In this document: in pieces, positions 27,793 through 62,949 of the stretch
How positions within the stretch are numbered: position 1 is the stretch's first letter
Layout of the letters: each line of letters starts with the position of its first letter
Source: Psammoneis japonica
Taxonomy: Eukaryota
Reading direction: 5' to 3'
Length of the DNA stretch: 64,000 nucleotides
Assembly: GCA_008632985.1 (NCBI GenBank)
Contig: QPGO01000005.1
Location: 434,001-498,000, forward strand
Program-made: the position numbers and the translations under genes
Notes under the pieces: generated by a model
The model's database searches: none
What the model was told of the DNA's origin: nothing
The model's input: only the letters and a program-made list of their open reading frames with translations

Positions 27793-27830
27793 AGCAATCG
27801 AGTAGAACATCATACTGGCTTTTAGTAACC

Positions 27831-33290: not shown

Positions 33291-33402
33291 ACAACTCTTG
33301 AGAGTACTGCTGCTGATTTGAGGCATTCGGAACCGCTGGGAGTTGTGCACTGAACCCACCTTGTATAAAGTTTATCTATCGAGATTTATAGCTACTTCTA
33401 GT

Positions 33403-36519: not shown

Positions 36520-37031
36520 AGTTTGAATTTCTCAACTGAATCAGATATTACGAATTTGTGCTTTTATCACCCTCTCCTAGAGAGAGCTTGTGGTAACGTT
36601 AGCAGCAGCAGCAAACAGCTGTTTGCTTGGTGGGCTCACTTCACATCACACAACATCTTGATCTTTCTCGATCTTTGATCTTTGGTTGGCGCGCTTTTGT
36701 TGAGCTCAAAACCTGATGTTTCTTGTGGCGGATGGTCGTGGCGGCTCAGGACCCGATCACCACACTTCAAGTTGATGCGTCACGGCCTACGTGATTATTA
36801 GTACAATTTCTACGCGAAAAATGGCGCGCTCATGGCCTCATTCATTCATCGCGCATTATCTTTTTTCTGATTTCGCGAACAACGAACAACATCAACATAC
36901 CAATCTGCTTCTTGGTTGCTCGTCTATTTCAGACGCGAGGTTTATTTCGAGACAGGCACAACCGTCAGTGCTTACTCCACTTATTCAGTACACAACAAAA
37001 GTGACAACCGAAATTTGTACTACTTGGAAAA

Positions 37032-39102: not shown

Positions 39103-42100
39103 ACTATTGCGCATGTCATGGACCGAGAAGGAATGGCAAGTAATAGAGAAATGGCATTGGAATTCAGAATTATTTACTCTTTCTCACATGGTAGCTAGAC
39201 GTAGTAACGCGGTCCTTTTCACAGTGCTGCCTCTTAGCTGCTGCTCCTCTTATTCATCCCATTTAAAACGACATAAAGTCTAATAATTACTTTGTTTCAG
39301 ACGAACTGGTGATGGGAGCAAACAGCATCAGCACAAAAAAGGATCAAAAATCACGTTGCACTCTACTGTGAATGTAAGCAGATTTATCTTCTCTCACACA
39401 TCTTCGTCCATTGATTTACAAATCTGCGTAATTGGCAGCTTGGCAAATTCTGAGTTTCCACCAAAAATCCACAGCAGCCATCAACAACAGCAACCATGAG
39501 CTTCTGGCTCTGTCCCAGTGGCTGCATGCCCTTGTCCCCAAGTGCCTCCCTGATCCACAACCAGGACTGGTGTTTTACGACAGAGAGGTTGACAGCTGTC
39601 CAGCAGTGTGTTGTCTGGCAGTGCAGTGTGCATGACAGATGACAGACCAGGATGGAAAGGCACATCAGATGGGCAGCAGGACACAGCTGGAGTTGTTGCA
39701 ATGGCACAGCAAGCAAACTGTTGAGTTTTTTTTTCAGTGGCAAAAAAGCTGGTCAGCCAGGGATCTGGTGACCAAGAGGAGGGAGAGGCTTGGAAAGCCT
39801 GCTCTGGGAGGGGGGGCAGACACATGGCATGTCACACCAAATTGGTTGGATGATGAGGTTTTGGTCCATGCCACAGTGGCTGCTGGGAAGACATCACATG
39901 GAGGGCACTTTGCACTGGAAAAGGTGGCATGCAGCACAGCATGGGAATGCTGGGAACAAGTCCAGCAATCCCAAGGTAGCATGGGCACCAGGTGCCATTG
40001 GTTGCTGAAAAGGAGTCAGTGCACAAAATGTCCAGGAGACAAACTTCATTTCAAAATCTGTCTCCTCTTCATTGTTGCCGCACTCACACACAAAAACAAA
40101 TGACATGTGTTGTTCAGGCTTGTGGGCTGCATTTTGATCCATGCAGTCACATCGTCCCTTTCTCATTTTCTTGAAGCCAGCTGCTAAAAGATGCCATCAA
40201 CATCAACAGCAATGTCAATGAACCCTTTCAACTGCCTGTTAATTGCCTGCAGAGCTTGACTGGAAGTGTCATTGTGACACACAAAGAAAGGTCCAGAGGG
40301 AGTGCATGTCCTGGCATCTCATGAGAAACTCACCCCAGTGCACAGGTTGCAATCAACATGGCATCTCACATGACTCACCGTGAAATGAGACATGCCATGT
40401 GCAGCAAAGCAAGCACAGTGCTGTGCAGCAATGACCAAACTTGGTGAAAGGCAGCCCAGTTTTAGCATCTGCAGTTTCTCTTCCAGGGTGGCATTGGCAG
40501 TTAGATTGGTGCCAAGGCTCAAAATTGCAGCACTCAATGAACAAGAAAACAAAGTGCCGAGCATTTGCTGGGAAGGCCTCAAGGGGACCCCCACAAGTCT
40601 GTGCTTCCATTCAATGGAGCAACTTTTTTGAGTTGCAGAAAGTGTTTTTCAACAAAACCCTGACCCTGAACAACAGCAACAACAGTGACAACAGTGAAAA
40701 GAAGAAAGGAAAAATGGCTGAGAGACGAGAGATGAAAAATTGCACATGCCAATGCGCCAATCAAAATCCAAACAAACAGGAAGTCAGTTCGAAGACACCT
40801 GCGTTCCAAATGTCTTTGGTGGGCAGGGCCTGGAGAGATCGAGGCCTGGAGTGTTCTTCCGCAAACCGCAACCAACAGTGTGCCAAAAGTTGGCCATTCT
40901 CCAGGGCAACGAGACTGTCAACATGTGCGTGAACAAACCAGTGAGCACTTGAACAGAGCAATTGCACCAAAAATTTCGAGGTTCACAATCCGTACGATGC
41001 TCACACATTGCCACCCTGCAAGCCAAAATAAAAAGCATGCGCCATCGGCAATCACCAGAAAAAGCGCAACTCGAAAGAAGCATTCATCGATCCATCGGAG
41101 AATGTGGTCCTGTCCAATTTCTCTGTGCATTTGCGGTGGATCCATGGCTCGAATGCAAGCCGATCGCGATTGCGTCAGCTCCGGATCCTCTGATGACGGC
41201 GACTCGACAAATGCATCTGCTTCACTCTGCATTCTTCTCAGTTGACTCTCACTCCAGAGAGTCTCGATTTCTTCTTCTCTTCAGATAAATGTTCCGTTTT
41301 TCTATCTTCAATCTGTGTTCACTTGGACCTTCATCATCATCTGATTCTGTGCTCTTCAACATCAAATTTGCTGTGGGGGACGATGGCGATTTTCAAATTT
41401 GGATTTCCAGCTGGATTTGGAAATTTGAAGATTTTTCCGTCAGTCAGTCGCTCGGCAAGTCTTTTGCATTTTCGACGGTCACCGTAAAGTGCACGCAGGA
41501 ATCAGCAGTGTTTTTGAAAGTGCCGAGTTCCCACGAATCTTCTACATACGAAACCACTGTAATGACTCTACGAGGATACACAAAAATGACAGTGATTGAG
41601 AAATTTAGCAACGGTCATGAGACAAACAAAAGCCTCTTTCTTTCGCGCTCGTTTTCGATCACAACTCGTCATTTGCGGCACGATGTGTTTGTTGTTCGCC
41701 AAGCCGGAATGCAGCGACACCCAAGGATGGCTCGCCCTTCCTCTGGTTCTAATTGCTTTCTCTTGTTTGGTGTTCCACAGCATGTTTTGCTTGCGCGAAG
41801 TGTTGTCTCTCTTTTCAACTCGTCGTCTCGCACGATGTGTTGTTGTTTGCCAAGCCTGAATGCCGTTGTCGCCAAGGATGGCTCGCCCTTCCTCTGGATT
41901 GAGACCTTGCATTTGTTTGGCATTCCACAACTCATTTTGCTTGATGGCGTGTTGTCTCAAATGGCAGCGCAGGTGTTGCCAGTTAAGTCCGGAGGTCGGG
42001 GCAAATTGAGTGCGTGTCTCCGGCCTGGAGTCCATGTTACTCTCGTGTCTTTGACCGCAGGAAGTTGCCTGTTCGCTTGACCCGTCAGGTCACGGCTGTT

Positions 42101-43429
42101 GAAACAGACAGCAGCGTTCGTCTGTAAAGCAGCAAGAGCTCGCCGTGCAGATCATGCCGTTGACGGAACGCAGGGTTTGGGGTTCCGTCGCACCAGTGAC
42201 GTGGTGCGGTAAGTCTTCACTCGCAGGGAGTGTTGATTTAGCACGCGGTTGATTCGCAAGTTCTCTTGTTGTCTCCGCAGTGCGTCCCCCCTTTTTCTTT
42301 TTTTTGGGATGGTTTTCCACCCCGAAAATAGGAAAAAGCTTGAGCTCCATCTTTTGATGGAGCTCTTGAGGCAATGTTATCCCACGCGACCGATTTCTGT
42401 CAACTTTTGACATTGGCGTGTCTCAATTTTATTGAAACACTCTTTGAACCTTTACAACAGAAGCAGAAAAACTAAAAGCACCAGACAGTGTTCCCTCATT
42501 TGCGTGTGAGTCATTCCGCATGCATGTCAATGGACTGCGATGACGGTCGCAGCGCTTGCGATGTCGTTGCACATTGTGTTGTCGTTGTTTCTGCTCCAGC
42601 ACTACACCGCTCTCTCCTCTTTCTTTCAGATGGGGTGCACGCTGGGGTGTTCGTTATGGCATGCCCCAAGGCTTGTCATCGACATGTGCTGGATTATTGC
42701 GACGCTGATCGCCCGCTTGTCTGGGGGCCATTCGAGCCATCTCCATTACAAAGTGGCTCGCTACGACACTCTCTACCAGACAAAAACAAAATGTTCGAAA
42801 TTCGCGAGCGTTTTGGGTTATGCTCGAGAATGACGGCATTAGAGAAAACAAATCTAGACACAGCGTTATGTGATGCACCAAACTGAAAACAGTCTAATGG
42901 AGTTACGCAAACGTCGTGTACACGCCGATTTCTAGTTCCAATGGATGTCGCTGTTGCTCAACGCCAACCAGAGCCATTTCCGATGCCGGCACCACAACTG
43001 AGTTCTTGTCGAATGGCACGCCAACCCGCTTTCGGAAGAGATGGTGGGCGATTCACAGATTCAGCTCGTTGGGGTGATCCATCAAAGAAAGAAGGATGGA
43101 ACTCTTTCAATTCACCAAAATAGAAACGAGTTGACAGCTCTTCTGAACCACTCTTTTGGCTGCTCATAGAGATGCTACGAGAGCGACGGCCGGTGCTGCT
43201 CATGTCCAGGTGCCTTGAACACCGGTGCCGCCCATTCCAGTCCAATGCGACAACATTCTGACTACATCTGTAAAGAGGTGGCTAGCCGCATGTCCAACGA
43301 AGAGTGGCCACCAAAAAGGCCCTCCAACCATGCCAGTGTCCAAGCTAAGGCCGGCAACGATGATTTTTGCAAAGTTGTGTAAGCCGCACAGCCAACCCTG
43401 AACCGTGCTTCAATCGCAGCCGCATCTCA

Positions 43430-44950
43430 AACAATGGCCAAAGGCAATGAGATCAGCGGTTGGCTCCCTTCTTCTCCAAGCACAGGAAGCGGTGTTCTGC
43501 CCTTGTCGATGAGGGTCTGAAATTGGGCTTCTCCCAAAAAGAGTGCATGCGGGACAAACATGCTCGTAACGTCCGTGAAGAAACAGGCCAGTGTCCCAGC
43601 TACGGCAGCTCGAGCTGGTTCATGCCGAATGCCACACATTCGCAACAGTCTGCTGGATGTTTTCCGCATCATTTCCGAGAGACTCAAGCTCTCGTTTCCC
43701 ACCCTTTGAGTGAGAAGTGAGCTAGAACGCATCAAGGGTTGGTCTTGCGAAAGGAGTCGTCTTCGAGCCCGGCGTTTCCATTCTCAACGTCTCCGACAAT
43801 GTCTGTCTTTTTGTTCTCCTCCTCGTCCTCCTCCTGCTCGATCTCGTCCGCGTGTGTGACATGAAGCCAACCATTCACAGACTTTGACTTTCTTGATGGC
43901 ATCGCAGCAAATCACACCAAGAACAGCACCGACGAGGCCGCAAACAATGGCAATGTAAAAGATGGGGCTGGGCATCGCCGTGGCAAGAAATTCGTAGTTG
44001 CAGCAAGCCTGTAACACCATTCCTCAGAATCACGCGGTTTACCAAAACGGGGACAATGGACGCAATGCTTTCGAATGAAGGTGCTTTAGAGAGCTGCAAG
44101 CCCATTCGATGGGGTGCTTCTAGCACAAAAAGTGCCTCCGCAATGGGAAGTCCGAAGAAGCCAGCTGCTGCCGCCAACGCAGACGTCAAGTTCATGGCTC
44201 TTGCAGACAAGACTGAATGTTGGGTCACGACACCCAAGCAGGAGCCAATCATGCCACCAGTCAGAATTAGGGGAAGCTCGGGTCCCAAGGATAGACCAGG
44301 CGCCAGTCCGACAGTCAACAAAACAAGAGATTGACAAAGGCATCAGAGCCCTGAACCCCCTGGAATTCAGCGACTTGACACATTCAATTTGCCCCGGAAT
44401 GGCTTTCGGACCGGCAAAACGACAAGATTTAAGACAGAATCTGCAACATGATGCGAGCAAGAGGCAGACGGTTAGATGGACCAAACAGAACAAACAAAAT
44501 TGCAACCCACTGATGTGAAGCAAGACTTGCCCCGCCAGAAATGGATGGGCAAAGCCAAATGTAGTGAGAAGAGGGAATGCCCATCCAAGTCGGTAAAGAC
44601 TCCCATCATGTGCAGCAGCTCAGAAACAGTCTTTCACATGAACTTCACACGAAATTTAATGACATTCTTCCACAAGGCAGTGCAGACTCCAAAAGCGATT
44701 CCTAAATTCAATGCCCACACCAATTGCTGCAGCGAGGTGACCCCGGGGTCTTCGGGGGTTAAAGAGGAAGTATCTCGCCATACGACACGCAAGGCTGGGT
44801 GGATCGACGCAACACATGGACCCGTCCTCGTTTGTCACAAGAACTGTTTCTACCCACGGAAGCAGGGTAAGAACAAATTTGATGCGATTCCAACAAATCA
44901 GGGAACACAAATTGCCGTCATCACTTGTCTTCCGATTGCTGCAGTCATGC
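43430..44950 (-). pseudogene. CLC voltage-gated chloride channel/antiporter pseudogene
   Basis: GLSLGPELPLILTGGMIGS, AAAAGFFGLPIAEALFVLEAPHRMGLQ, AAVAGTLACF and upstream GIAFGVCTALW...GVFTDLDG lie in different frames, with stops and frameshifts. Confidence 0.75.
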
Positions 44951-45726
44951 GTCCTCATTGGCAGATGAATCACATGACAATTCCTCAATCAGTGGCATGA
45001 TTGAGCCACCAATGTTGTGAATCGATGGTGGCGTGGGTGGGGTCACAGCTGGTGGTGCAGGGTTGGCGAGGGCATTGGTTGATTCTTGAAGGGCAATGGA
45101 GGAGAAGCGTGCAACGTCAGCTTGTTGCGGTTTTGCTTTTGGTCAACAGGGAAGTTTGAAGAACCAAGTGGTGGAGCAGTCAGGACAGCACCGTAGTCAC
45201 CTTGGGCAACTCCAAATCCTCCAGAATTTGGTTTCAAACAGAGAGACTTCCCGACTCATGTGAGCATTAGGCAGCGCTCCTATCCTGGCAGCAGAGGCAT
45301 CCCGGCACTCTGAATTGTCCGTCACGACGACAGATCTGAATCCATGTCGTCATCCGAGCACTGAAGAGAGTCTTCTTGCAAGACTTTCCCAGTGCCTTTT
45401 GTTGCATGAAGGTCATGGGCGACACAGCAGATGGCAATCCACCACGGATCCAAGTCATGGACGTGCTTGTCGCCTTCGCTGAGCAACCCACTTGACTGAC
45501 GTTCAGCCAATTTTGTCAGAGGCGGTGCCTGTGGTGGATGCGCATTGGTTGGGCTGGATGGTGAGCGGATTGACACGCATGTCAACCATCGGGGATGACA
45601 ATTTATGGTTGGCTCCAAACACATCCTTTTCCAACATCATGTCATCCTGATGCACAGACAACAGCCAGAGAATCCATGTCGCCTGAGTCCATTCCAACAA
45701 GCTTTTATGGAAAGGGGACACATCCA

Positions 45727-46304
45727 ACTCAGAACACTGCACACTGCCTGGCGAGTGCGGGAGGTTCTCAACAACCCAAGAGGCAAAGAAATCACCACTC
45801 GGCTAATTGTTGAGTCCCTTCTCCGCACACACATTTGGGCATGTGTTGTGCACAGCATCATCACACAGCATTTGTCCAACTCTCCCTCTCGTCGCAGGAT
45901 GGGTTGTCGCCATGTGGCGCATCCGCACGGCGGACTTACGAAATTTTGACCATGCACTCCCCTCTGTTGGGCAGGCGGATGGGTCAGCGCCATGTGGCGC
46001 ATCCGGCCAACACCAAGGGAGGAGTGGGTTCGAAGCCCAACCGCCCACCCCGGATGGGGCAGAAAAGGGGCAGGCCGAGAAAGAAAAGGAGGCTTGGATT
46101 TGAGGCCGACTCGAACCAGCGACCTCAGGAAGCGTAAAGACTCATAACCACTCAGAATGCTGTACACTGCCTGACGAGTGCGGGAGGTTCTCAACAACCC
46201 AAGAGGCAAAGAAATTGCCACTCGGCCAATTGTTGAGTCCCCTTCTCCGCACACACATTTAGGCATGTGTTGTGCACAGCATCATCACACAGCATTTGTC
46301 CAAC
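45727..46304 (-). mobile_element. TRIM-like miniature LTR retroelement (578 bp)
   Basis: Direct repeats 45727-45880 and 46150-46304, with CATCCA on both flanks (45721-45726 and 46305-46310). Polypurine tract GAGAGGGAGA (minus) abuts the left LTR; GGTTATGAG (minus) abuts the right LTR. Confidence 0.85.
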
Positions 46305-49300
46305 CATCCACAAACTTTTTGAGGGGGCTTGATGTCTTCTTTCTGCGTGTCGTTGATGAAGCTGGGATGGTTTCAGGAGAAACGAGCTTCTTGCTCTGGG
46401 TGTTTTTCGTGGGAGAAATGCTCGTAATGTTCTTAGAAGGAGCCAGCAATGCCTGCGTTTTCAACGTGCAGGTACTCGAGAGACTTGATTTTGCCAATCT
46501 CCATCGGAATGGACCGTTGACGTAGTTCCCGCCGATTCTCAGGTCTCATGTGTGCACAGAGCACGCAATCCTTGAAACACCTTTCCTCTTAACCGTCCAC
46601 GAGTGGCCCAAGTTCGAAATGTCCTGGACAGAATGAGCAAATGCATTAGCTTGCCAAACTGGAGCGGGATGCCTTCGTAGATGAAGTCGTTCGAGCCAGC
46701 ATTCAAGCGACACCGGTTCGTCAACTGGTGGAGGAAACAATGCCCGTCGCCTCCGCTGTTTGTGCAAAGTCATTGTGCAGATGCACCTCACCAGTGGAGA
46801 GGACGCATGCGAGACGATTGTTTGGGAGCTCGAATGCAACGACAGACCTGCCGATCCGATCGCCGATCGCGCGCAGACAACGTGCTGCATGCACCGGTGC
46901 ATTGTTCTTCCGCGTCCGACAGCCACTTGTCCGCTGAAATCCAGGTGCGGTTCTGCACTGGACTTTCTTTGCTTCAGAGTAGCGAGTTAGATTCGCACTG
47001 TCTTGAAGCCATGCCAGAGCTTGCTCCACCTCGGAGGGCAACCTTGGACAACGTTTCTGACTGAGAAAGCTTGCCAGTTGAGCAACTCTTGTTGCTCGAG
47101 TCGTCCTGCAGGGAAGATGTGATCAGCAAGAAGCCCATCACAAACACAACATCAGTCAGAGCCAAGACAAAGCTGCTGATGTTGAAAATCACCAATTTGA
47201 AGGATCGCACATTTTGTTGCCTCTCTGTCAAGAGGAAGCAGCTCGCCAGGAGAAGGTCTGTTGACAAAGAACTCTTCATGAACGAGATTCCCATCAACTT
47301 CTTCGTTTCCAATGCAGCAGGTGCCAACTTTTCAAAGGTGAAAGCATTGATGACTTGATGCACAATGGGAGTGGTGAGTGTGGCCCACCAACCACCGCCG
47401 CCACAGAGAAGGTGCTGGCATCCCGGCACTTCCCCAAGCACAGCAGATCAAGCATGTCCAGCAGTGTGGCAGCAACGGATGATGCCTCAAAATGAAGCAA
47501 AGAACTTGGGTGTCTCAGTCTCAATGGTGAGTGCACCATTTCCACAAAACATTCTGATGAAGGTGACATGGAGGAACAGGCCAGCTGTGTTGCACTTCTC
47601 ATTGAGCATGACATCAGTGAATTTTGGTGCCAGCAACTCCCTGCATTGAGGTGGAAAGCATGACTGCCGATCTGCTTCCCAGAAAACAATGCGATCATGA
47701 TGCACACTTGCTTGGAGGTGCAAAGCTCCTCCTTGGACAAGACATTTTGTGGATCCAAAGCATGCCACAAAGACTGCCTTGCACAAGGGTTGCCACTGGC
47801 CATGCTGTCTTTGGGCTTTGCATTCACAAACGCTTTCGTCTTCTTCCATCAGTGGGTGAGTGACTGTTGTTGGGAGTGAAAAGGAGATGAAAGCGCTGCA
47901 GCACGCAACAAGAATCAATGTTGGATTTTGCTTGAGTGGCAGCAAGGGTTTCTGGTTGGAAGTGACACACTGTCATGTGTGTGTCGTCAAATTTTTGGAC
48001 GATGCACACACATGTTGTGCAATGAAGTGCGTGGGCAGCACTGTGAGGAGGTCTGCTTGCGGCTGACAAATGTCATTTGTCCTGCAGCCACAAGCCATTC
48101 ACCCTTGTCATTTCACATTTCATCTGTTCCAGTGCTTCCATTTTTAAGTGGTCAGCAGGTGGTGGGGAGAGCTGCCTCTCTAAATCCTCACAAAGTCTTT
48201 GTGATTTTGTGACACAGCTTCTGCACATTCACACAATCATCAGTGCACCTGAATTTGAGCAGGCCTTTGAAGAAAGCACCTGGATTGGAGGGCAGACACA
48301 CTTTCTTTGCTGAGTCACTTTGACAACAACAAGGTTTCTCACACTTCTTTTCCAATTCAGCATCGCATGATTGGTCCAGCACTTGTCACGATTGGTGCCC
48401 AACCTTTCCAACCCAACAAAACAGAGGGATGCTGCTAGAAACAATGCTGCAGACAAGAGGATTGGCTGAAGCTCTTCCATCATTTGCACCAGGCTCAGAT
48501 CATGACCACATGTGTGCTCCAGTCTGTGCTGCAATGCAAAGAAACTGATGGGGGACCCTGACCCCAACAACAACAACAACAACAACCCGGAAAGCTGCCA
48601 TTGACAACTCCCAATGTTGCTGCCAAAATCTGCCCAATCTTTTGAGCATCAGACTGACATGCTCTCAGCCAGAGGCACCAGAAACTGCAAATGAGCACTG
48701 AACTGTTTCCTGTGGAGATTTGCAACACCTGCCCATCAGGGAATGACAAGTGCAAGGGTTGCAAAGATGCGTGCAAAACTGGTGCAATGGCAACTCTTGT
48801 TTCCAGGTTTAGACTCTCATGAGAGCTCTTGACTCCAGCTTGACTCTTGGCAGAAGTGCTTCACACCAGTGTCTTGAAATCATGCACAGGTGGTTGCCAC
48901 TGCTTGAGCAGCATCTCCTGCTCACAGAGAGCTCCAAGAACATGCCATGGAAATGCTGTGCACAGCTTGCACAAAGTGTTGCACATCAGCATCTTAGAAT
49001 CATTGTCATGTGGCTGCAAATGGTGGCCACTGCCAGAGCAACTCCTGCATGCAGAGCAACCCATCATGCTCACAAAAATGCCACACAGCCCACAAAGTGC
49101 TGCTTCAGCATCTTGGAATCATGTGCAAATGACAACTGCTGCTTGAGCAACTCCCACATGCATGCACACAGAGCAACCTCCAATGCACCAGCTGTCGTTG
49201 CCAAGTGGGAAAATGCTCTCTGCAAATTGCTGCACTTGTGTGTTCCTGTCACATCTTGACAGCACAGTTGCCACTCAAGCAACTCCTGCACAGAGAAACC

Positions 49301-49899
49301 TGACATGACAGTTGTGTTGTTGTGGCTGCATTTTTGCAGATTGCCTGTTTGCAGCCATTGCTGCATTTTGAAGTCTGGTTGTGCACAAGTGTTTTTGATG
49401 TGGCGGCCTGTTCTTTTGCCACACCGGCAACAAACCACCTTCTTCCATTTCTTTTGCACTTGGCAGCAGCAACACTGTTGATTTCCTCAGCGCTGCTTCT
49501 CTGCGCAGCCCCATCCACAGCAACATGCTCAGATTTTAAGCATTGTTGGATGCAGGCATGCAAACAGGCATGCTGCTGAAGCTTGTTTGCAGGTCAGTCA
49601 ACAAGACAACATTGACAAACTTCTCTCACCTGGTGCTGTGGACCTGCTGTCATTGACAGCCTCAGATTCTGAGTCATTTTGATGTGCTTCCAATCCACCA
49701 GAGACACTGGGAGCAGTCCTGCCATTGTTCTCCTTGTGTGAGTGGACAGCTTCTGAAACAATGTCTGAATGGCCTCACACCACTGACACCTCAGAGAGGA
49801 AATGTTTGTCCCCAACACTTTGAGGAAGACACCCTGCATGCTCCTCCTGTGCTTCACACCAATTGCACTGGAGCTCTTCACCCCACCAGAGTGACAGTG

Positions 49900-54900: not shown

Positions 54901-57249
54901 TCGTTCAGCCAGTCTGGTGGAGTTGGCTCTCTGGCATTGTTCTTCATCCTCCACCAGCCAGCTGCTCTTCATCAGAGTGCACGACATCGCAATGTCTGCA
55001 TGCATGACAAAATTACATTGCCACATTATAAAATTTGCTTGTCTGCACACAACGGTTTTTGTCATTTAGTTGGTTTTTATCTCCTGCTGTTCTTCATGTT
55101 TGAGCACAGATGCTTTTTAATTTTTGTGCTCTGCCTTTTTCACAACAACCAACGATCTTTAACGACAAGCCAAACATTGCAACCTCATGCAATGAAATTT
55201 TCATCATGCAAAGTGTGCACCAATTGTTCAATCAAAAACTGTGCTCCAATTGGCCCATTCGTCCGCATCGTCCTCTTCATTCCACATGTCTTGTCCGCTC
55301 TCTTGCAAGAATTTCAAATGTGCCGCTGCCACATTGGATGTTTCCTCGTCACCGTTCCAAAAAAGCCACACTGCATTTCTTGCATTTGGGTGAACATCAT
55401 CGAGAGGAAGAGGTCCCTCGAAACACAGAATCGCATTGATGCTCCCCTCTTGACGTCGTGTTGTCTGCTTCTTTTTCTCTTTCTTCATTTTGCCCGTCCC
55501 ATTTTTCTCTTCCTTCTTCGTCTTGGTGCCGCCTGTTTTCACTGTCTCTGGCGTCTTTCCATCCGAATCCTTCTTTTTCATTGATCCCGTCACCGTCGCC
55601 TTCATCGTGTGTCACTTTGTTTTGGATCCATGTTTCTGACTTCTCTCTGTGCTGTCTCCATTTCCGAATGTTTCTTTGTGATTGTTCGCATGCGTCACTT
55701 GAAGGCACCCACGTGTTCTTCACGCACCTCAATGCGCATGCAGAAATCCATGTTGTTTTCCAGCACATGCACCCTTTCTCCTGATGCATGTTTGCACAAT
55801 GTTTTCTTCCATCAATTCTACACTCCGTGTTGCCCTTTGCCGGTGTGATCTCACGCAGGATTTCCCTGGGAGAAGTCACACATGCGTCTGGCAGGTTTTT
55901 GTGTTTAAAACTCCAAATCCCACCAGGCGCGCATGTGACTTCTCCCATGCACCACTCTGGCACATTTCTGTAGAAACCAGAATTTTGTGACTGATGCACG
56001 ACCAATCTGGTGAATGCAATGGCGGACCCCCTTCATCAATCCCGGAGGATCATGTGATGGAGACAGTTGATGGTTTTGTTCACGCTGATGCTGCTTGTTG
56101 TTCAGAGGAACAGAGAGCAAAGGATGCAAAGGCTGCTGTGTCAAGATTGGCAGAAGCAATGGCAGAAGCCCGTCGTGCCGGTGTGGCTGCAACGACCGCA
56201 CTTGAGAGTGCTTTGTTAAATCAAGCAACGACCACTCGTGAATTTAAGCACATCTGTGTGCAGTGCATCGAGTCATCGATCGAGACACACTGTTCAGACA
56301 ACGACTGATTGTTGCAGTGGAAAACCACAGCGAAGCGGAAATGAGTTTCCAGTGCTTTCTTCACGGCAACGCATTTGATGCAAAAGAACTGGGGCTCCCA
56401 ATCTCCATTGCGGGACATCAAAAATCAGAATGTGGGCCGCACATGCTGCACAGCTGTGACTTGACGTTGCTTCTGAGATGCCTCAGGGCAAATTCTGACA
56501 CAGACGCCACAAGAGTGGCAGAGAGGGAGCAATCTGTGATTGACAGCATTGACAAATCCATCCACCACCGTGCCGTGCCACTCCTTCGAAGGCGACACCC
56601 AACACAGCCGCAGCACGTCCTGAAGGATGCAATCACGTTGCTCCACGAGGCCCTCAATGATTTGATGAGGAAAGACGTTGCCTTGCAGTGACAGTGGCAA
56701 GCTTTGTGTGATCTGAGGCCAGGCACAGATCAAATGCGGGGAGGGACATGGACCGTGATCCGGGCTGTGGACGAAGAAGCCATGGCAAGAGAAAGGGTCC
56801 TGCAGTTGGCATTGCAAATCGAGGCACAATTGGTGGCTGTCAACCAGCCTGACCACAGCGCCGACTTTCAGCATGCAATTGTGGCTGCCAGGGAACATTT
56901 CATGGCGCAGGATGACCAGATGGACCGTGCAATTGGACACTGCATAGAATCTGTGAGGAAGCAATTGCTCTAAAACTGAACACATCTGATGCATTGAGAG
57001 TTTCCTGTCATGTCGGTGGTTGGGAAAGCCTTCCAATCAGGAAGAAGCTTGTCTTGGAGTTTCAGAAGAAGACATCAGAACGAAAGCAATGGAAGGTGCT
57101 TGCACCGCACTGCTTCACGTGTGCCACAATGACTTTGCCAATTCTGAAAGGATCAAACTCATCATGTTTGCAAGAAAGAGTTGGGAAATCACTGTGAGTG
57201 AATGACAGATTGATGTGCGCATCCTGTTTTGGAAACAAATCTGACCAAC

Positions 57250-60200
57250 ACTTCCTTCTGTCCTGTGTGGCCCAAACAAACAGGGCCTTTTCTTGCACTT
57301 CTGCTGCTCCTGGACATTCTTCATAAACCAAAACATTGTCCCCAATTGCTTTGACAGGGACAACACGTAACTCAGGTGAGCACTGAGTCTTCTCAGACGT
57401 TGAAAGCCAGTTGTTTCATTTGTGATCAAGCTGCCAGCAACTGACCAAGTGTCGTGCTGATGCTGTTGCCTCACAGTTCTCTGGTCAGCTTGACAAGCAG
57501 TTGGATGGACCACTGCAAAAATCGATCCTGTGTCTTCCTGTTTGAAGAAACATGGCAAACGGGAGGGAAACTGTTGATCGCCCTTTCGTGCGCCAAAGGT
57601 CACATGGGCAAAGTCTCACCATGGTCCTTCGCTTTTGCAACTGGGGTGCGCACTGCACGCATCCCTCCTGTTTGCATTGTAAAACTCTGTCTTGCAAGTC
57701 AGGTGTGTGTTTTCACTGTCTTCACCAACACAATCCTCCCACTTTTCCGACATGAAGTTTGGCAACACAGGATGAACTTGGCAACGAGCATGCAAGCTGT
57801 TCCACTCAAACGTCACAGCGCCGATCCCTCGGTTGTAGAGGTGAGAGTGAGTGCACTTTCTCCCAGCGTGTGATTGTCCATCCTGACTCTTGATGATTCC
57901 TTTTTCCCAGTTGGCAAAATCCAACCATTGGCTGAAATTGTGGCGTTGAGCCTCATTTGGTCCTCCATGCGCGACACGACCTGCTTCAGAAAACTGTGAG
58001 GTTGCGTTGTTGTGTGGTGGATGATGGCAGCTTGAAAAAGTCTTTCAAGAGACATTTCCTCAAGCCTGCATCAAAGTTCATCGCGTGTCGGCAACGACAA
58101 AGAAACACTGGGAGATGGAGTGTTTCATGAAGCTTTTGAAGCTTCCATCCGCACCCTTCTGTTCGCGGGACAAATTGCACTGTCCGGTCAATGAGGAGAC
58201 GGATTTTCTTGTTTATTTTCTGAATGGATGAACTGGGAGTCACGCTTGTGATGGGTGAACTGCCTGGCCTGTGCCATGCGTGGAAGACAAGAAGGTCCTC
58301 GAGCAATTGAATGAATTGCCGGACGCTGCAGTTGAGTCTTTTTCCCTTGTGTTTTTTCTTTTTTTGGTTGTCGTCACCATCCTCAGCCTCACTCTCCTCT
58401 TTCTCATCCTCATTTTCGTCCCAGTCACCCGACTCCTCCGACCTTTCATCGTCAGAGTCCAAGTGCTCACTAGGTTGGCAGCAGCTCTCAAAGTTTGCTT
58501 TGGGCATCTTGCGATTCTCTGGAACAATGGGTTCGTCTGTGTCCTCGTCAAGGAAGCATGACTCACATGCGTTTTGTCCCTCGCCAGTTGACAGGAGAAG
58601 GTAGAAAACAAAAGCCATTCCAGCCCAGTGGTGAGAGTTGAGGAAGGCAAGTGACGTTGCTCCTCCTTTGAAGTTTGTTCACAAAAAGGATGCTTTGCAA
58701 GTTGACCGGTGATTGCTGAAAATCCTTTCCACCATGCTGTCCACCTCACTTGCGACCACAGGTGTCATGCTGTCCACAAATGAATTGATCACCCTTTTCA
58801 AGGTGCCGTTTTCAAAGAGATGCATCATGTCGCTTGCTGTCGCAAGGGCAACGCCGCATGGTTGTGCGCCAAAGTCTGCCTCAAAAAGACAGTTGGCAGG
58901 TGCGTTGTGTTGCTTGAGGCAACGCAAGATGCCCAACCAGTGCTTCCTTTCTTGGTCTGATCTGTTGTTGTCGTTGGCCTTAGTTTGCACTTGGTGGAAA
59001 TCCAGTCCTCGGATGAACTCACATTCAATCCATGGGTCGTCCAGTTTGTTGAAGCCAGTGAGGCAAAAACGACAGCAACATTGACGACAGTTGTGACCTC
59101 CGCATCGTCCGACGAGACAGTCGCCGCTTTTTGCATCTCCTGTGATCAGAGCAATCAGTGGGATTGCGTGGAGGTGTCGCATCTCATCCCCTCGTCGCAC
59201 GTGTGTTTTCATGCCTCCTTTTCTCATGACTTCCAAAAGTGGCTCCAAAACAACATGCAAGCAAGTGTGGTGGTCTCTTGACGAGCGTCCCTTCTCCGCC
59301 TTGCGATTGTTTGAGAGATTCTTTGCCGCAGATGATGACATCTTTTCCAAATCCGGGAGATGACCAATTGGTTTCCAGACACTCTTGTCGACCATTTGTT
59401 GAAGGCAACATGCGCAGAGGTCATGATCACTGGTTCTCTGCAATGTGATCCCATCCCTTGTGTCCTGCCAGTCTTGTCAAGGTAAATGACATTGCACTCG
59501 AGAAATTGTTTCTCCGGGTCAGTTGTCCGTTCTTCGTAACTGTGCCTGCACCACTCACCCGCCAAAAGGCACTTGTCATCCGGTCCCTTTGCTTTGCACT
59601 TCCCAAAAGGATTGTCTGGATCGGCCATGTTCTCTCTGCTGCACCACAGGTGAGGATCGAGCAAAAACTGTTCCCAAACCTTTGTGAAATCCCATCTTGG
59701 CACTGACACTCGTTTTGGCAAACCGGTTTTGAAATTTTTGGTTTCTAGAGTGACAGGAACAGACTCGCTGGGTGGAAGAGGGAAATGCTTGGTTAAGGCA
59801 CGCATCAACTCTTTTCTCCTTGGCAGAACTGTGCCAAGCTTGATGTTGCTGTTGCCAATGTGCCTCTCAATGAAATCAACAATGCATTCGCACAACTCCA
59901 GGGGAGCACCACGTGTGTCCATGAGCTTCTTGCACAACTCTGCGCAAGCTCCGTCAAGATTTGTCAAAGAGGGAGCAGAAGCCAAGGCCTCTTCTGCAGG
60001 AGCATCATGCCCAATCCCCAAACATTGATCATCATCGTGAATGTCCTCTTCCTCCTCCATTGTCACGTCCAACACTGCAGCAAAGGATTGACCACCGCCA
60101 ACATCCAAATCGTTCATTGCCAAAAGTTCAACTCCATGCATGCTGTGGTTTGATGAAATGGAGGACATGTCGTCCATTCCGTGCGGTGCGTCATCCGGGG

Positions 60201-60492
60201 AGGGGAACAAGGGGCTGCTGCTCGGATCACTCGTTGAAGATCTTGGGAATCTGCTGTGAGTAGATCGCCTTGGACAGGATTCGTCATCATCAGAGGACAA
60301 AGAGGAAGAACTGCCGCTTTCTTTGGGTGGCCCCTCTGTTGTGGCAGGAATGTCGCTTTGATCTGGGATTGGATCTTGGGTTTGCAACTCTTGGGCAACT
60401 GAGTGACACATCGGTGAGTCTCTGCAACCGGGACAGAGAAGAGGGTTTCCATCCATTGTCAAATCAGACAATGTTGACAGGGCCTTCATCAA
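57250..60492 (-). mobile_element. Degenerate Plavaka-like (CMC-related) transposase
   Basis: Motifs PDNPFGK, GEW.R.SY, IYLDKTG, EPVIMT, WKPIGHLPDLE, ITGDAKSGD.LVGR.GGH..C.C, DMMHLFENG and GWKLQKLHE..H...NFDAG...KDFFKLPS.TTQQR, across frameshifts. Confidence 0.75.
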
Positions 60493-60907
60493 GACTCATG
60501 CTCGTCGTCCTTGTCTTGTGGATGAGAAGGGAAAAGAAAAACAACACGCAAAAAATGGCGGGAAATTGGCAAACATTGCATCATCTTCCAGATTTGGATG
60601 ATTCTTGCAGGTGTGACGTGTCTGCATTTTGATTTTTTATCTGGCATTCACAACGAATGTTGTGCTTTTTATTTGCCATCAAAATGCAGAATGTTGTCTC
60701 CGTTGAAACGCAATGACAGCCATCAAAAAGCAAGTTGGACTGTTCGTTGTCATGTGCAAATGTGTTTTCAAATTTCAATGTTGCTGACAACAATTTGTGC
60801 AATGTCACAGAGAAAAACAGAGTGCCTGGCTGTCTCAACACGACCCAAATGATGGTTGCACTGTCGAACAGCAACACTCCTCTCATTGTTGCTGTGAAAA
60901 GATCAAG

Positions 60908-62179
60908 ATGTCGTCTCCAGCACCACCGGCAAAGAAGAGAAAGAAAAATGAGACTGTTGAGCCAATGAGCCCGAAGTCAGCGCATGGTGCATTGAAATCA
61001 GAAGCAGAGAAGGTGGCTAGAAATGATCTGTTTCCACAGGTGAAGTTTCTCAGTCCGTCCGAATTGGCAAGCAATGGGAGCGTCTCAATGTTTGTCAAGA
61101 AACAGATTGCTGGTGGCAACATGGACACTTCAAATTGGTCAGGAACTTGGGAGGAATGGGCAAAAAAGGCGGTAAAAAGGCAAATTGACAATTGCAGAAA
61201 CACGGTGTGTTTGGCTGTTGGGGCGGAGGCAATGGCCCATGAGCCAAGTGACCAATGTGTGTGATTTCGAGAGTTGCGTGTGTCTCACAAGAAGATGACG
61301 GCGATGCTTTGTCCATGTGGGCGTTGTCACTGAGGAAGAGGGAAAGGAAAAAGAAAAGAAACTCAAGGCGGCAGTCAGGAGGAAAAAGCAAGGCAGGAAA
61401 AAGTCAAGCCATGACAAGAATGAAGAGAATGACACCCCATTTGTGCCGACATGGGATCCGTTTAGCCTGGACACTGTCACCGGCAGTAAACGAAGGAACA
61501 AGCAGGCACACAAGTGGTTCTGTGATCACATGCTGCCTCAAACCAAGCAAAAGCAGGCATGGAGCAGCACCGTCAAAACTGGGAACGCACAGGTCTCACA
61601 GTTGTTTACAGTTGGTGATGAAGCTTTGGCGCTGTTGGCCATGGAGAATTGTTGGCAGGTGTGGGCATGCAGGAACAAGGAGGAGGCGGTGGAAGAATTG
61701 GGTGAGGAAATGGAGCCCGAAGAAACAAGGCCTGCCCCTCGGTGCACAAAGCCAAAGAAACAACGAGTGTCTTGGGGAGACGATGGAATCAATTGGTTCA
61801 ACGATTCACACAAAGAGGTGATGAAAGACAGAGACTCCAAGGAGGGCAAGGAGTTTGAAAAGTGGCATGCGGAGATCAAGAAAAGTGAGTGCGAGAAGTC
61901 CGGAGAAGCAAAAAGAAGAAGAAGAAAGCGCCGACCGGTGACACGGAGAAGGTGAAGGCAATGAACAGCCCAATGGTGGAGAGCAGCAGGGATGATGACA
62001 GCAACAACGATGAGCAGGAGGAAGGCGCAAAAGGCAAAACGGACGAGGGAGGAGACGAGTCCGATGGAGACGAGTCCGACAATGATCGTCAGCTTAGTTC
62101 AAGAGAGTTGCAGCAAGAAAATGTGCGCACAGTTGGCATGGCACTCAGTCATTGCACTGCAGATGTAACAAGGGATTGA
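60908..62179 (+). pseudogene. Degenerate transposon accessory ORF divergent from the Plavaka-like transposase
   Basis: LFPQVKF, W....KKAVK..I...R and TVGDEALALLAMENCW..W...RCT...SWGDDGINWFN....V..DR form a motif set I associate with CMC/Plavaka-type accessory proteins. The region is frameshifted and Tyr-free. Confidence 0.55.
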
Positions 62180-62949
62180 CTTAACCGATGAAATGCTTTT
62201 CTTGTTTAAAATGATGTTTGCGAAAATTGACAAACCAAGGATTGTGTGGCAATGCAATTGCGCACTGGCATGTGGCAACAAGGTGGAGGCAGAAACAGTG
62301 ATGTGGGTGTGCAGTGAAAAATGGCACACACAATTCTCAATGAGTCATTGCAACATTGGCACACCAAACTTGTAANTTCATTGCACAACAATTTTTTTGC
62401 AACATTTTGACAAATTGTCATCATGCAAATCTGCACATTTTTAACATTTCGTGCACTCTGATGTTCTGTTGACTGCAATTGCGGTGCAAGGTCAAACGAG
62501 ACAAAGACTTCAACGAGGTCACAAACAGCGAAGCCCGTTGCATGCAACGGCTCTCCAACAACTGATTCATTCATCAGAGACAGACAGCACAGCCCGCCAT
62601 CCAGGCCCGCCAGACCAACAGGAGAGTGGTCTGTGCCCCCCCCTTGCTCACACACTCGAGGGTTTTCCACAGGCTCTGAGCCTGTGGGTTTTCACCACCC
62701 GTTTCACCATTCCCCAGCAGGCCAGAACCGAGCCGCGGCAACCTCACTCTTTCTTTCCAGATGAACAGAGAGCGGATGTGCTTCTGAATTCGAGATTCGA
62801 GAAGCCTATTTTGACCATTGGTGAACCCTGTGTGTGACGAGGCTGGCAACCGTATTTTTCTTTTGCACGGCGAACAAGAAAAAAAAAAATCTCGGTGACA
62901 CCACCCTCGACACTTTAATACAGTACAGTATCGTACACGAAATTTCACC

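What the first reader, a model, noticed from the sequence alone, without database searches (positions are those of the whole stretch)
39300..62850. Repeat-targeted TpA->TpG/CpA hypermutation: an apparent 'reverse-RIP' genome-defence process in a diatom
Seen: transposon blocks have almost no TpA. Hand counts give 1 TpA in 58801-59400 and 1 in 49141-49740, against ~12 in only 300 nt of gene B (3181-3480). Conserved Tyr codons (TAY) of recognisable TE proteins appear as Cys (TGY) or His (CAY): CVDD, LHICAN, SGCQMG, GHLPDLE, RDHHTCL, GRCGGH, GEWCR, ENCW. That is the same A->G change acting on either strand of TpA. The signature recurs at 9.6-10.85 kb and 19.85-26.65 kb. Known: fungal RIP goes the other way (CpA->TpA), and 5mC decay affects CpG. 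Inference: a dedicated or collateral mutator acts on silenced repeats. Candidates are DNA adenine deamination, a 6mA-linked process, or error-prone Pol-eta-type (WA-motif A->G) repair in methylated chromatin. I do not know of a description of this in diatoms.
Basis: partly seen in the sequence, partly recalled or inferred. Interest (0 to 1): 0.92.

Follow-up and report, generated by a model that had tools for sequence, protein, structure and literature searches.

The report
TpA-erasing hypermutation of diatom mobile DNA
In this diatom genome, transposons and a dead gene copy have had nearly every TA step rewritten to TG or CA, the footprint of a targeted mutator so far reported only in a distantly related alga.

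Summary
Five blocks (9576-10822, 19819-26656, 39430-41285, 46989-54969 with 62464-62806, and 54970-62463) have TpA observed/expected of 0.04-0.08, against 0.58 in the host genes. A sixth block, 41286-46988, is intermediate at 0.24. The block edges are sharp. Only TA and CG are depleted, and only TG and CA are raised.

The cause is mutation inside the genome, not native composition:
- Conserved tyrosines of a Plavaka-like transposase, a Ty3-like reverse transcriptase and a chloride-channel pseudogene now read Cys or His.
- All 30 related transposase loci from metagenomes have ordinary TpA.
- Same-genome paralogues keep TA where the window has TG or CA.
- Duplicated segments inside the blocks differ by CA<->TG doublets, 21 in 740 bp against 5 in 2028 bp of host duplicates.

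Named homologues show the organism is a diatom. The same TpA-only hypermutation was measured directly in Bigelowiella natans (bioRxiv 10.64898/2026.01.13.699255). The kind is therefore known; I found no report of it in diatoms.

"Repeat-targeted" is not shown. The enzyme is unknown.

The parts
9576..10822 (.). Block A: a 1.25-kb TpA-depleted insert of unknown identity.
   Evidence: It holds 3 TA against 51 expected, with TA o/e 0.05 and CG o/e 0.34. None of its 9 frames of 75 aa or more has a Pfam hit. The flanks hold 13 and 17 TA per 200 bp.
19819..26656 (.). Block B: a 6.8-kb TpA- and CpG-depleted insert of unknown identity, with strong C over G skew.
   Evidence: It holds 17 TA against 280 expected, with TA o/e 0.04, CG 0.27, TG 1.85 and CA 1.57. 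No Pfam hits were found.
20428..22662 (+). Internal direct repeats of block B (20428-20613 / 22477-22662 and 21127-21374 / 21481-21730), which diverged mainly by CA<->TG doublets.
   Evidence: The first pair has 8 doublets among 27 differing positions in 186 bp. The second pair has 9 doublets in 251 bp.
39430..41285 (.). Block C: a 1.9-kb TpA-depleted block holding a DUF2985-domain frame at 40787-41083(-).
   Evidence: TA o/e is 0.07 and CG o/e is 0.30. The DUF2985 hit has E 6.4e-08 and 33 bits against a cut-off of 22.
41286..46988 (.). Block D: partly depleted, low- to mid-copy sequence, i.e. hypermutation in progress.
   Evidence: TA o/e is 0.24 and CG o/e is 0.81. Depth is 160-690 against about 60 for single copy, and 11812 at 45668-46334. 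The surviving TA sites show the same context bias as the fully depleted blocks.
43224..44804 (-). Chloride-channel (CLC) pseudogene inside D, split over at least three reading frames.
   Evidence: Pfam Voltage_CLC matches at E 3.2e-10. The named homologues are diatom CLCs at 60-68% identity, and tblastn pieces cover 44804-43224. Of 8 Tyr-consensus columns, 5 are now Cys or His. Paralogues in the run keep TA at 9 places where the window has TG or CA.
46989..54969 (-). Block E, main part: remnant of a Ty3/gypsy-like retroelement, low copy and the most decayed block.
   Evidence: TA o/e is 0.04 and CG o/e is 0.15. RVT_1 matches weakly at 53819-54349(-), E 0.0019. CVDD aligns to YLDD of Ty3 RT 4ol8, E 0.079. 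Contig depth is 55-67.
62464..62806 (-). Block E, continuation beyond the F insertion.
   Evidence: No TA occurs between 62442 and 62807. F therefore lies nested inside E.
54970..62463 (-). Block F: a 7.5-kb Plavaka-like (CACTA/KDZ-type) DNA transposon, high copy.
   Evidence: It has 15-nt inverted ends at 54970-54984 and 62449-62463. Ten loose ends sit at 62463, and depth is 4757-25029 against about 60 for single copy. TA o/e is 0.08 and CG o/e is 0.59.
57227..60495 (-). Broken transposase reading frames of F (59224-60495, 58679-59476, 57986-58678, continuing to 57227).
   Evidence: 478 homologues have E <= 1e-3. Relatives P0002, P0006 and P0008 pass Pfam's Plavaka cut-off. The window keeps 34 of 35 conserved non-Tyr columns and none of the Tyr columns. 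Of 16 Tyr in the closest relative P0013, 7 are Cys and 3 are His in the window.
26657..39429 (.). Host gene stretch used as the internal control: bestrophin-like gene, repeat-rich 1100-aa ORF and 2-isopropylmalate synthase.
   Evidence: TA o/e is 0.43-0.68 and CG o/e is 0.87-1.18 per kb. The named homologues of LeuA are all diatoms.

Best explanation
SHOWN. In this diatom, inserted or mobile DNA and one pseudogenised gene copy have undergone a mutational process inside the genome. That process converts TpA to TpG or CpA, which is an A->G transition on either strand, at almost every site. Other A and T contexts are untouched. Ordinary CpG->TpG/CpA decay runs alongside it. The process stops sharply at the edges of the inserts. 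It acts on a retroelement, a DNA transposon and host-derived sequence alike. It hits duplicated copies independently. It removes R-TA-Y sites first and Y-TA-R sites last. By the genetic code it can never make a stop codon, so it kills proteins by missense changes, above all Tyr->Cys/His.

INFERRED. This is the same kind of process as the TpA-only hypermutation measured in mutation-accumulation lines of Bigelowiella natans. It acts on chromosomal double-stranded DNA of silenced, probably 5mC-marked chromatin. The most likely chemistry is enzymatic deamination of adenine to hypoxanthine at TpA steps. Its effect is to disable mobile elements for good. The enzyme, the targeting signal and the timing (constitutive or episodic, mitotic or sexual) are unknown.
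For: 1. Specificity. Only TA and CG are depleted and only TG and CA are raised in all six blocks. The F deficit equals the F excess, about 418 each.
2. Polarity, transposase. Of 16 Tyr in the closest intact relative P0013, 7 are TGY Cys and 3 are CAY His in the window, 1 is CGT and 2 are kept. At the 5 Tyr-rich family columns the window has H, H, C, H, R, with 6.7 Tyr expected and 0 seen, while 34 of 35 other conserved columns are kept.
3. Polarity, other genes. Five of 8 Tyr-consensus columns of the CLC pseudogene are Cys or His. The RT motif YxDD reads CVDD.
4. Not intrinsic. All 30 related transposase loci from metagenomes have TA o/e 0.42-0.78, with 13-42 TA in the matched part. The window has 1 TA in its 795 bp.
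5. Same-genome paralogues. In 43212-45058, 9 of 13 window-private AT->GC transitions lie at TpA, where 15.5% is expected (binomial P 2e-5). One change runs the other way.
6. Independent hits after duplication. There are 21 CA<->TG doublets in 740 aligned bp of four in-block repeat pairs, against 5 in 2028 bp of seven host pairs (Fisher P 4e-21 by positions).
7. Context. R-TA-Y sites make up 1 of 87 survivors against 385 of 1344 in the host. Y-TA-R sites make up 45 of 87 against 230 of 1344 (chi-square P 6e-17). Block D is intermediate at 7 and 26 of 82. Re-creation of TA from CA/TG does not explain this (P 9e-10).
8. Both strands. Across 20 former Tyr codons there are 12 Cys and 8 His. TG and CA are equally raised in E and F.
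9. Precedent. In B. natans, 230 of 231 de novo mutations in two integrated viral regions were A->G or T->C, and all fell on TpA. That genome also has 124 TpA-poor, CpA+TpG-rich clusters enriched in RT and DDE domains.
Against: - For the high-copy element F, none of the 11 best-supported difference rows shows TA in the other copies. Five rows show CG, and two are TG/CA swaps. This copy may have inherited its TpA-free state from an already mutated ancestor. In-place mutation is shown for D and B, not for F.
- Only 40 of 1110 difference rows were visible.
- The run that confirms the sequence may be the assembly's own sample.
- CA<->TG doublets can come from ancestral CG as well as TA. In block B the two cannot be told apart.
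- No deaminase or other candidate enzyme could be looked for, since no genome is held. Adenine deamination is therefore inference only.
- A simple rule of 'pyrimidine 3' of the target A' is not borne out. His outcomes are as common after a 5' pyrimidine (6 of 15) as after a 5' purine (2 of 5).
- Blocks A and B have no recognisable mobile-element gene.
- No methylation, chromatin or expression data were available. No RNA run was listed.
Confidence: 0.75

Rival explanations
1. Inherited or adaptive composition. The element lineages, or a once-mutated master copy, were already TpA-free when they spread. The pattern is carried by descent, or selected to evade a TpA-reading host factor, rather than made in place.
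For: F is present at roughly 80-400 times single-copy depth. In the 11 visible rows the other copies never show TA where the window has TG or CA. A 1200-aa relative with a single Tyr (P0052) exists as 8 near-identical cluster members in other assemblies. Block edges are razor sharp.
Against: All 30 related loci have normal TpA. Tyr is lost at positions conserved in up to 89% of 141 homologues, while 34 of 35 other conserved columns survive, which looks like damage rather than design. A host-type CLC pseudogene shows the same loss while its paralogues keep TA. In-block duplicates were hit independently. TA->TG/CA cannot create stop codons, so long Tyr-free frames do not show function (genetic code).
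Confidence: 0.1
2. A DNA route without adenine deamination. One version is oxidation of thymine at TpA by a TET/JBP-type dioxygenase, giving 5-hydroxymethyluracil that mispairs with G and so causes T->C. The other is error-prone repair focused on TpA in methylated chromatin. The footprint would be the same but the enzyme different.
For: T->C at TpA is the mirror image of A->G at TpA, so the footprint cannot tell them apart. TpA loss always comes with CpG loss, and 5-methylcytosine and thymine are both 5-methylpyrimidines. The flank preference is symmetric, R-TA-Y over Y-TA-R, with no strand rule, which suits an enzyme reading the duplex step. From recall only: dinoflagellate 5hmU favours TpA, and fungal KDZ/Plavaka transposons travel with TET/JBP genes.
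Against: No enzyme evidence of any kind was obtained here. The Pol-eta version (WA motif) fails because AA is not depleted and AG is not raised. The TpA-to-CpG loss ratio varies from 1.4 to 4.9 between blocks, so the two losses are not rigidly coupled.
Confidence: 0.15
3. RNA-level editing. An ADAR- or ADAT-like enzyme edits UpA in double-stranded element transcripts, and the edits are fixed by reverse transcription.
For: ADAR and fungal ADAT-type editing prefer U before the edited A (as stated in the preprint's Discussion, and in the abstract of PMC11156358 listed). Block E is a retroelement.
Against: F is a DNA transposon with inverted ends, and D holds a gene fragment. Both strands are hit about equally, 12 Cys to 8 His. 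Non-coding ends and internal repeats are hit independently after duplication within one insert. In B. natans the mutations arose in a transcriptionally silent, single-copy chromosomal region during clonal growth.
Confidence: 0.04
4. Sequencing, base-calling or assembly artefact in methylated DNA.
For: CpG miscalls in methylated DNA are known for some long-read base-callers (recalled, not checked). The confirming run may be the assembly's own sample.
Against: Five contigs of a public run match 48594-54999 with 31 differing letters in about 6 kb. The changes make coherent codon replacements at conserved Tyr sites. Block edges coincide with insert ends.
Confidence: 0.02

Closest known systems
TpA-targeted hypermutation of integrated viral DNA in Bigelowiella natans (Mettrop et al., bioRxiv 10.64898/2026.01.13.699255). 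I read the abstract, Results, Discussion and term searches; the supplements are closed.
   Same: The change is the same, TpA->TpG/CpA on either strand and nothing else. The long-term footprint is the same: clusters poor in TpA and rich in CpA+TpG, and CDS with a TpA frequency of 0.0018. Reverse-transcriptase and DDE-transposase sequences are enriched among the targets. The rest of the genome is normal.
   Different: The host is a diatom (Stramenopila), not a chlorarachniophyte (Rhizaria). Here there is only a footprint, with no measured rate. The targets seen are transposons and a pseudogene, not giant-virus or virophage inserts. Depletion is near complete (o/e 0.04-0.08), against 0.45 in the B. 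natans NCLDV region. CpG is co-depleted, and the preprint's text never mentions CpG. The R-TA-Y over Y-TA-R flank bias has no counterpart in the preprint's text, where the words 'context', 'flanking' and 'trinucleotide' do not occur.
Repeat-induced point mutation (RIP) of Neurospora and other fungi
   Same: It is a heritable, dinucleotide-specific transition mutagenesis confined to particular DNA segments. It ruins mobile elements and leaves a dinucleotide footprint with fairly sharp edges.
   Different: The direction is opposite: RIP makes TpA from CpA, whereas here TpA is destroyed. RIP makes stop codons, and this process cannot (genetic code). A repeat trigger is not shown here, since E is low copy and host tandem duplicates are spared. 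No dependence on RID or on meiosis is known. Diatom DNMT4 is RID-like but of unknown function (PMC9998398, passages read).
5-methylcytosine deamination (CpG decay) in methylated transposons
   Same: It explains the CpG->TpG/CpA half of the footprint. Diatom transposons are known to be cytosine-methylated through DNMT5a (PMC9998398 abstract).
   Different: It cannot remove TpA. TpA is lost 1.4-4.9 times faster (log scale) than CpG in these blocks.
APOBEC3 and ADAR hypermutation of retroelements and viruses in animals
   Same: Deaminase-driven, context-specific hypermutation serves as a defence. ADAR prefers U before the edited A (preprint Discussion).
   Different: Those systems act on single-stranded cDNA or double-stranded RNA and leave a strand-biased G->A or A->G pattern in retro-copies. 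Here both strands are hit, as are a DNA transposon and a pseudogene.

Membership tests
B. natans-type TpA hypermutation of foreign DNA | Changes are almost only A->G / T->C and fall on TpA. | tested here: met
   Only TA falls and only TG and CA rise among A/T-containing dinucleotides. Nine of 13 private AT->GC transitions lie at TpA. Tyr becomes Cys or His in 10 of 16, 4 of 5 and 5 of 8 sites. This is a footprint, not de novo events.
B. natans-type TpA hypermutation of foreign DNA | Clusters of TpA-poor, CpA+TpG-rich sequence sit in an otherwise normal genome. | tested here: met
   Six blocks lie between host stretches of normal composition. All five fully depleted blocks pass the preprint's cut-offs (rho TpA <= 0.43, rho CpA+TpG >= 1.52).
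B. natans-type TpA hypermutation of foreign DNA | The targets are foreign or mobile sequences. | tested here: inconclusive
   E carries an RT and F a Plavaka-like transposase, so these are mobile. D holds a host-type CLC pseudogene and C a DUF2985 frame. A and B are unidentified.
B. natans-type TpA hypermutation of foreign DNA | A de novo rate about 1000 times background, switched on in only some lines. | not testable with these tools
   This needs mutation-accumulation or pedigree sequencing of this diatom.
B. natans-type TpA hypermutation of foreign DNA | The same enzyme (the proposed ADAT2-like deaminase) is present. | not testable with these tools
   No genome is held for this window. The enzyme is not established in B. 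natans either.
Fungal RIP | C->T at CpA, so TpA rises and CpA/TpG fall. | tested here: not met
   The opposite is seen: TA o/e is 0.04-0.08 and CA and TG are 1.55-1.92.
Fungal RIP | The trigger is sequence duplication. | tested here: inconclusive
   F is high copy and D is 3-10x, but E is at about 1-4x the single-copy depth. Seven host duplicate pairs of 68-88% identity are spared.
Pol-eta type WA-motif mutagenesis | A->G at both TA and AA. | tested here: not met
   AA o/e is 1.07-1.31 against 1.16 in the host, and AG is 0.96-1.29 against 0.99.
ADAR-like RNA editing fixed by retrotransposition | Restricted to retro-copies, with a sense-strand bias. | tested here: not met
   A DNA transposon and a pseudogene are affected. 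Outcomes are 12 Cys to 8 His.
Plavaka / KDZ-CACTA-type DNA transposon (element F) | A transposase with the Pfam Plavaka domain (PF18759) and conserved acidic residues. | tested here: inconclusive
   The window frame scores 16.3 bits against a cut-off of 26.3. Three of 7 relatives tested pass the cut-off. D114, D216, H219 and D246, invariant or near-invariant in homologues, are kept in the window.
Plavaka / KDZ-CACTA-type DNA transposon (element F) | Terminal inverted repeats and a target-site duplication. | tested here: inconclusive
   There is a 15-nt perfect inverted match at 54970-54984 / 62449-62463, and the right end coincides with 10 loose ends. No clear target duplication was seen.
Ty3/gypsy LTR retroelement (element E) | An RT with YxDD followed by RNase H and integrase, flanked by LTRs. 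| tested here: inconclusive
   RVT_1 matches at E 0.0019, below the cut-off. CVDD aligns to YLDD of Ty3 RT at E 0.079. No integrase domain was found and no LTR pair.

The most novel reading that the evidence does not exclude
Diatoms and chlorarachniophytes share an old, dedicated genome-defence enzyme. It reads the duplex R-TA-Y step in silenced chromatin and deaminates adenine in chromosomal DNA. It would be a natural double-stranded-DNA adenine editor that disables transposons and integrated viruses by missense-only mutation (Tyr->Cys/His) and works side by side with cytosine methylation. This would be a 'reverse RIP' spread across the SAR supergroup.
Probability: 0.3. Interest if true: 0.9.

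Novelty: new member of a known kind. Interest (0 to 1): 0.72.

Why it matters
A TpA-specific, region-targeted mutator has so far been reported once, in an unreviewed 2026 preprint on a chlorarachniophyte. Finding its saturated footprint in a diatom puts the process in a second SAR lineage, one that is ecologically dominant. This has four consequences.
- The responsible gene becomes findable by comparing genomes that do and do not carry the footprint.
- Much 'unannotatable' diatom repeat DNA may be hypermutated elements whose proteins have lost all Tyr. Homology searches and gene callers will then be misled, because these regions have few stop codons and long false ORFs.
- A natural enzyme that makes A->G changes in chromosomal DNA at a defined step would interest base-editing research.
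- This window adds details the preprint's text does not give: the co-occurrence with CpG decay, the symmetric R-TA-Y preference, action on a host-derived pseudogene, and the point that the process can never create stop codons.

Tried and rejected
- No whole genome is held for this window, so no genome-wide profile or enzyme search was possible.
- The search for homologous proteins on the F frame at near lengths found nothing. The full HMMER scan then found 478 relatives.
- Exact look-up of 8 host ORFs found none in the collection. P0013 and P0001 carry no names, and neither do P0052 and 8 of the 9 other proteins; P0046 is labelled only 'hypothetical protein'.
- The ESM Atlas look-up of LeuA gave only generic HMGL clusters.
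- The first metagenome scan with the single protein found no relative. The alignment-based scan found 30.
- No RNA holder was listed among the sequencing runs. Run X3 laid nothing.
- Only 40 of 1110 difference rows and 16 of 6265 contig pieces were visible from read laying.
- Earlier scan notes hold nothing on this genome or on any eukaryotic case. The phage notes listed do not bear on this finding.
- The idea that the target A needs a 3' pyrimidine on its own strand was tested on 20 former Tyr codons and not supported.
- The idea that surviving TA sites are simply new TAs made from CA/TG was tested and rejected.
- Three overlapping host repeat pairs (30429, 31056, 31068) were dropped from the doublet control because blast returned their self-identity.
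- Literature searches for a diatom report found none. The library lacks most subscription journals.
- The bioRxiv supplements are closed. These include Table S2 with the mutated sites, which could show flank context in B. natans.

Full report
**1.

Per-kilobase statistics show TpA observed/expected (o/e) of 0.00-0.07 over 20-26 kb, 40-41 kb and 47-62 kb. Gene-bearing stretches read 0.4-0.85.

From the position of every TA I delimited the blocks. F's limits were later refined using its inverted ends and read loose ends.
- A: 9576-10822
- B: 19819-26656
- C: 39430-41285
- D: 41286-46988
- E: 46989-54969, continuing at 62464-62806
- F: 54970-62463

TA counts are 3, 17, 8, 83, 19 and 40. At host density 51, 280, 76, 234, 322 and 312 would be expected, giving log10 P between -18 and -109 (there the E/F border was set at 54841/54842).

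The edges are abrupt. There are 13 TA in 9400-9599 and none in 9600-9799. There is 1 TA in 10600-10799 and 17 in 10800-10999.

Of the sixteen dinucleotides, only TA and CG are low and only TG and CA are high. AA, AG, AT and the others sit at host values. In F the TA plus CG deficit and the TG plus CA excess are both about 418 (my arithmetic). Frames in the blocks hold 0-0.6% Tyr, with Cys at 4-8.6% and His at 3-8%.

**2. It is not an assembly artefact**

Contigs of a public run cover 48594-54999 in five pieces with 31 differing letters in about 6 kb. The run may be the assembly's own sample, so this excludes an assembly or polishing error rather than giving independent biology.

**3. Organism and anatomy**

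The window's 2-isopropylmalate synthase has 70-91% identity to proteins that their sources name as diatom: Ditylum, Fragilaria, Thalassiosira, Trieres, Seminavis and others. The chloride-channel fragment likewise matches named diatom proteins. The host is therefore a diatom, not Bigelowiella.

*Element F.*
- It has 15-nt perfect inverted ends.
- Ten read loose ends pile up at its right end.
- Word depth is 4757-25029, against about 60 for single-copy contigs.
- Its broken frames have 478 homologues. Three of seven relatives tested pass Pfam's Plavaka cut-off, while the window frame itself scores below it.

*Element E.*
- It has a weak RVT_1 match.
- Its CVDD aligns to YLDD of the Ty3 reverse transcriptase, at E 0.079, which is weak.
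- It is at about 1-4x the single-copy depth.
- F lies nested in E, because the TpA-free sequence continues for 340 bp beyond F.

*Blocks D, C, A and B.*
- D holds a chloride-channel pseudogene at 43224-44804(-), spread over at least three frames. It is present at about 3-10x depth.
- C holds a DUF2985 frame.
- A and B have no recognisable gene.

**4. The TpA loss is mutational, and at least partly made in place**

(a) *Polarity from relatives.* The closest intact relative of the F protein is P0013, with 65.6% identity over 314 aa and 3.2% Tyr. It has 16 Tyr aligned to the window. In the window 7 are TGY Cys, 3 are CAY His, 1 is CGT, 1 is TGA, 2 are kept and 2 are other residues. Tyr->Cys is tied with Glu->Asp as the commonest replacement class.

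Across 204 aligned domains, the five Tyr-rich columns read H, H, C, H and R in the window. Tyr is expected 6.7 times and seen 0 times. Meanwhile 34 of 35 other columns with at least 75% consensus are unchanged, including the invariant D114, D216 and H219 and the near-invariant D246. This is a nearly intact gene with selective damage, not slow random decay.

In the chloride-channel pseudogene, 5 of 8 Tyr-consensus columns are Cys or His and 1 is kept. Two lie in doubtful alignment.

(b) *Composition of relatives.* All 30 loci of the same transposase family fetched from metagenomes have TA o/e of 0.42-0.78. Each has 13-42 TA in the matched part. The window has one TA in its 795 bp.

(c) *Paralogues in the same genome.* Twenty-two of the visible difference rows lie in 43212-45058. 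In 13 of them the window has G or C where the other copies have A or T. Nine of those 13 are TA in the other copies and TG or CA in the window. The expected share is 15.5%, giving P = 2e-5. One row goes the other way and three are CpG decay. At 43436 the window's His codon CAT is TAT in the paralogues, and Tyr in 52% of homologues.

(d) *Independent hits after duplication.* Four repeat pairs inside B and D differ by 21 CA<->TG doublets in 740 aligned bp. These doublets account for 42 of 138 differing positions. Seven duplicate pairs in host sequence show 5 doublets in 2028 bp, or 10 of 482 positions (Fisher P 4e-21). Three overlapping host pairs were dropped. Such doublets arise when one ancestral TA (or CG) becomes TG in one copy and CA in the other. 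In the D pair, where TA partly survives, three further differences are TA against TG or CA and none is CG against TG or CA.

**5. Properties of the process**

*Specificity.* It is specific to TpA. AA->AG is absent, which rules out a WA-motif polymerase signature.

*Strand symmetry.* Both strands are hit. Twenty former Tyr codons gave 12 Cys and 8 His, and TG and CA are equally raised in E and F.

*Range of targets.* It acts on a retroelement, a DNA transposon and a gene fragment, so an RNA intermediate is unlikely.

*Flank preference.* It prefers certain flanks.
- R-TA-Y sites are 28.6% of host TA sites (385 of 1344), 1 of 87 survivors in the depleted blocks and 7 of 82 in D.
- Y-TA-R sites rise from 17.1% (230 of 1344) to 45 of 87 in the depleted blocks and 26 of 82 in D.
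- The chi-square P values are 6e-17 for the depleted blocks and 3e-5 for D.
- Re-creation of TA from the abundant CA and TG does not give this pattern (P 9e-10).
- The preference is a property of the duplex step, not of one strand. The outcome (Cys or His) does not depend on the base before the codon.

*Relation to CpG loss.* TpA is lost faster than CpG. The ratio of log losses is 4.0-4.9 in the less saturated blocks F and D, and 1.4-2.3 in A, B, C and E.

*Stop codons.* By the genetic code, TA->TG/CA cannot turn any sense codon into a stop, and it erodes TAA and TAG. This explains the 125 frames of 90 aa or more in 24 kb. It also means long Tyr-free ORFs are no evidence of function. The break at 58679 lies where P0013 has Arg and the window has TGA. 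That is what CpG decay of a CGA codon would give, which is inference.

**6. What is not shown**

For F, the 11 visible rows never show TA in other copies. Five show CG where the window has TG or CA, two are TG/CA swaps and two are other changes. F may have multiplied after it was mutated, or every copy may be saturated independently. The 1070 hidden rows would decide between these.

'Repeat-targeted' is unproven. E is low copy, host tandem duplicates of 68-88% identity are untouched, and the B. natans target is single-copy.

The coupling with CpG loss suggests that silenced, methylated chromatin is the target. Diatom transposons are methylated through DNMT5a (PMC9998398, abstract and passages). 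No methylation data were available here. No enzyme could be sought.

**7. Comparison with what is known**

I read the abstract, Results, Discussion and term searches of the preprint by Mettrop et al. (bioRxiv 10.64898/2026.01.13.699255). Its supplements are closed. It reports the following.
- In mutation-accumulation lines of Bigelowiella natans, 231 of 302 new mutations fell in two integrated viral regions.
- Of those 231, 230 were A->G or T->C, and all of them fell on TpA. The rate was about 6e-7 per site per generation.
- The process was active in only some lines.
- Genome-wide there are 124 TpA-poor, CpA+TpG-rich clusters and 324 CDS with TpA frequency 0.0018, enriched in RT and DDE domains.
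- The authors propose an ADAT2-like adenine deaminase.

The preprint's text mentions neither diatoms nor CpG, and it does not discuss flank context.

The diatom window shows the same footprint at saturation. Fungal RIP runs the opposite way. CpG decay explains only half of the pattern. ADAR and APOBEC models do not fit the substrates or the strand symmetry.

Nine literature searches found no report in diatoms. The library lacks most subscription journals.

**8. Verdict**

The repeat trigger and the candidate chemistries remain open, and the Pol-eta candidate is rejected.

The kind of process is already described in another alga, so this is a new member of a known kind. It adds a new host lineage and several new properties.

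Noticed in passing
protein P0052 and its cluster; not in the window: A 1200-aa relative of the F transposase has one Tyr in 1200 residues. It reads H, C, H at three of the Tyr-rich columns. It occurs as 8 cluster members (five of them full length) in ENA/NCBI assemblies of unnamed origin. The same hypermutation therefore probably exists in at least one other genome.
   Followed up: partly
window 3031-8201: Tandemly duplicated host genes (3242-3553 / 6434-6745, 4172-4675 / 7274-7769, 7662-7928 / 7936-8201; one carries a weak PAN_4 hit) are 70-88% identical yet have normal TpA. Duplication alone does not trigger the process.
   Followed up: partly
window 19819-20400 and 26000-26656: In block B the TpA-free domain extends about 600 bp further on each side than the CpG-poor domain. 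CpG counts are already at flank level where TA is still absent.
   Followed up: no
window 55014-55160 and 62095-62442: The two ends of element F keep more TA than its interior: 7 in 150 bp and 6 in 350 bp, against about 1 per 250 bp inside. The ends also have higher read depth than the middle. Hypermutation seems weaker near element ends, or the ends are younger.
   Followed up: no
window 45668-46334: A short, very high-copy repeat (word depth 11812) has an internal 155-bp duplication at 94% identity. Reads at 45842 are preceded by the F terminal sequence, so in other copies this repeat abuts an F end.
   Followed up: no
window 29988-33290 (+): A 1100-aa open frame has 111-bp tandem repeats (self-matches offset by 111 bp) and very strong A over T skew (0.39). 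It has no Pfam hit and may be a repetitive secreted or wall protein.
   Followed up: no
window 39000-63000: Because TAA and TAG are almost absent, all six frames of the depleted blocks carry long open frames: 125 of 90 aa or more in 24 kb. Gene callers would over-predict genes here.
   Followed up: partly
window 40787-41083 (-): A DUF2985-domain frame (E 6.4e-08) lies inside TpA-depleted block C. It is a second, possibly host-derived sequence caught in a depleted block.
   Followed up: no
window 62376: The window's single N lies inside the right end of element F.
   Followed up: no
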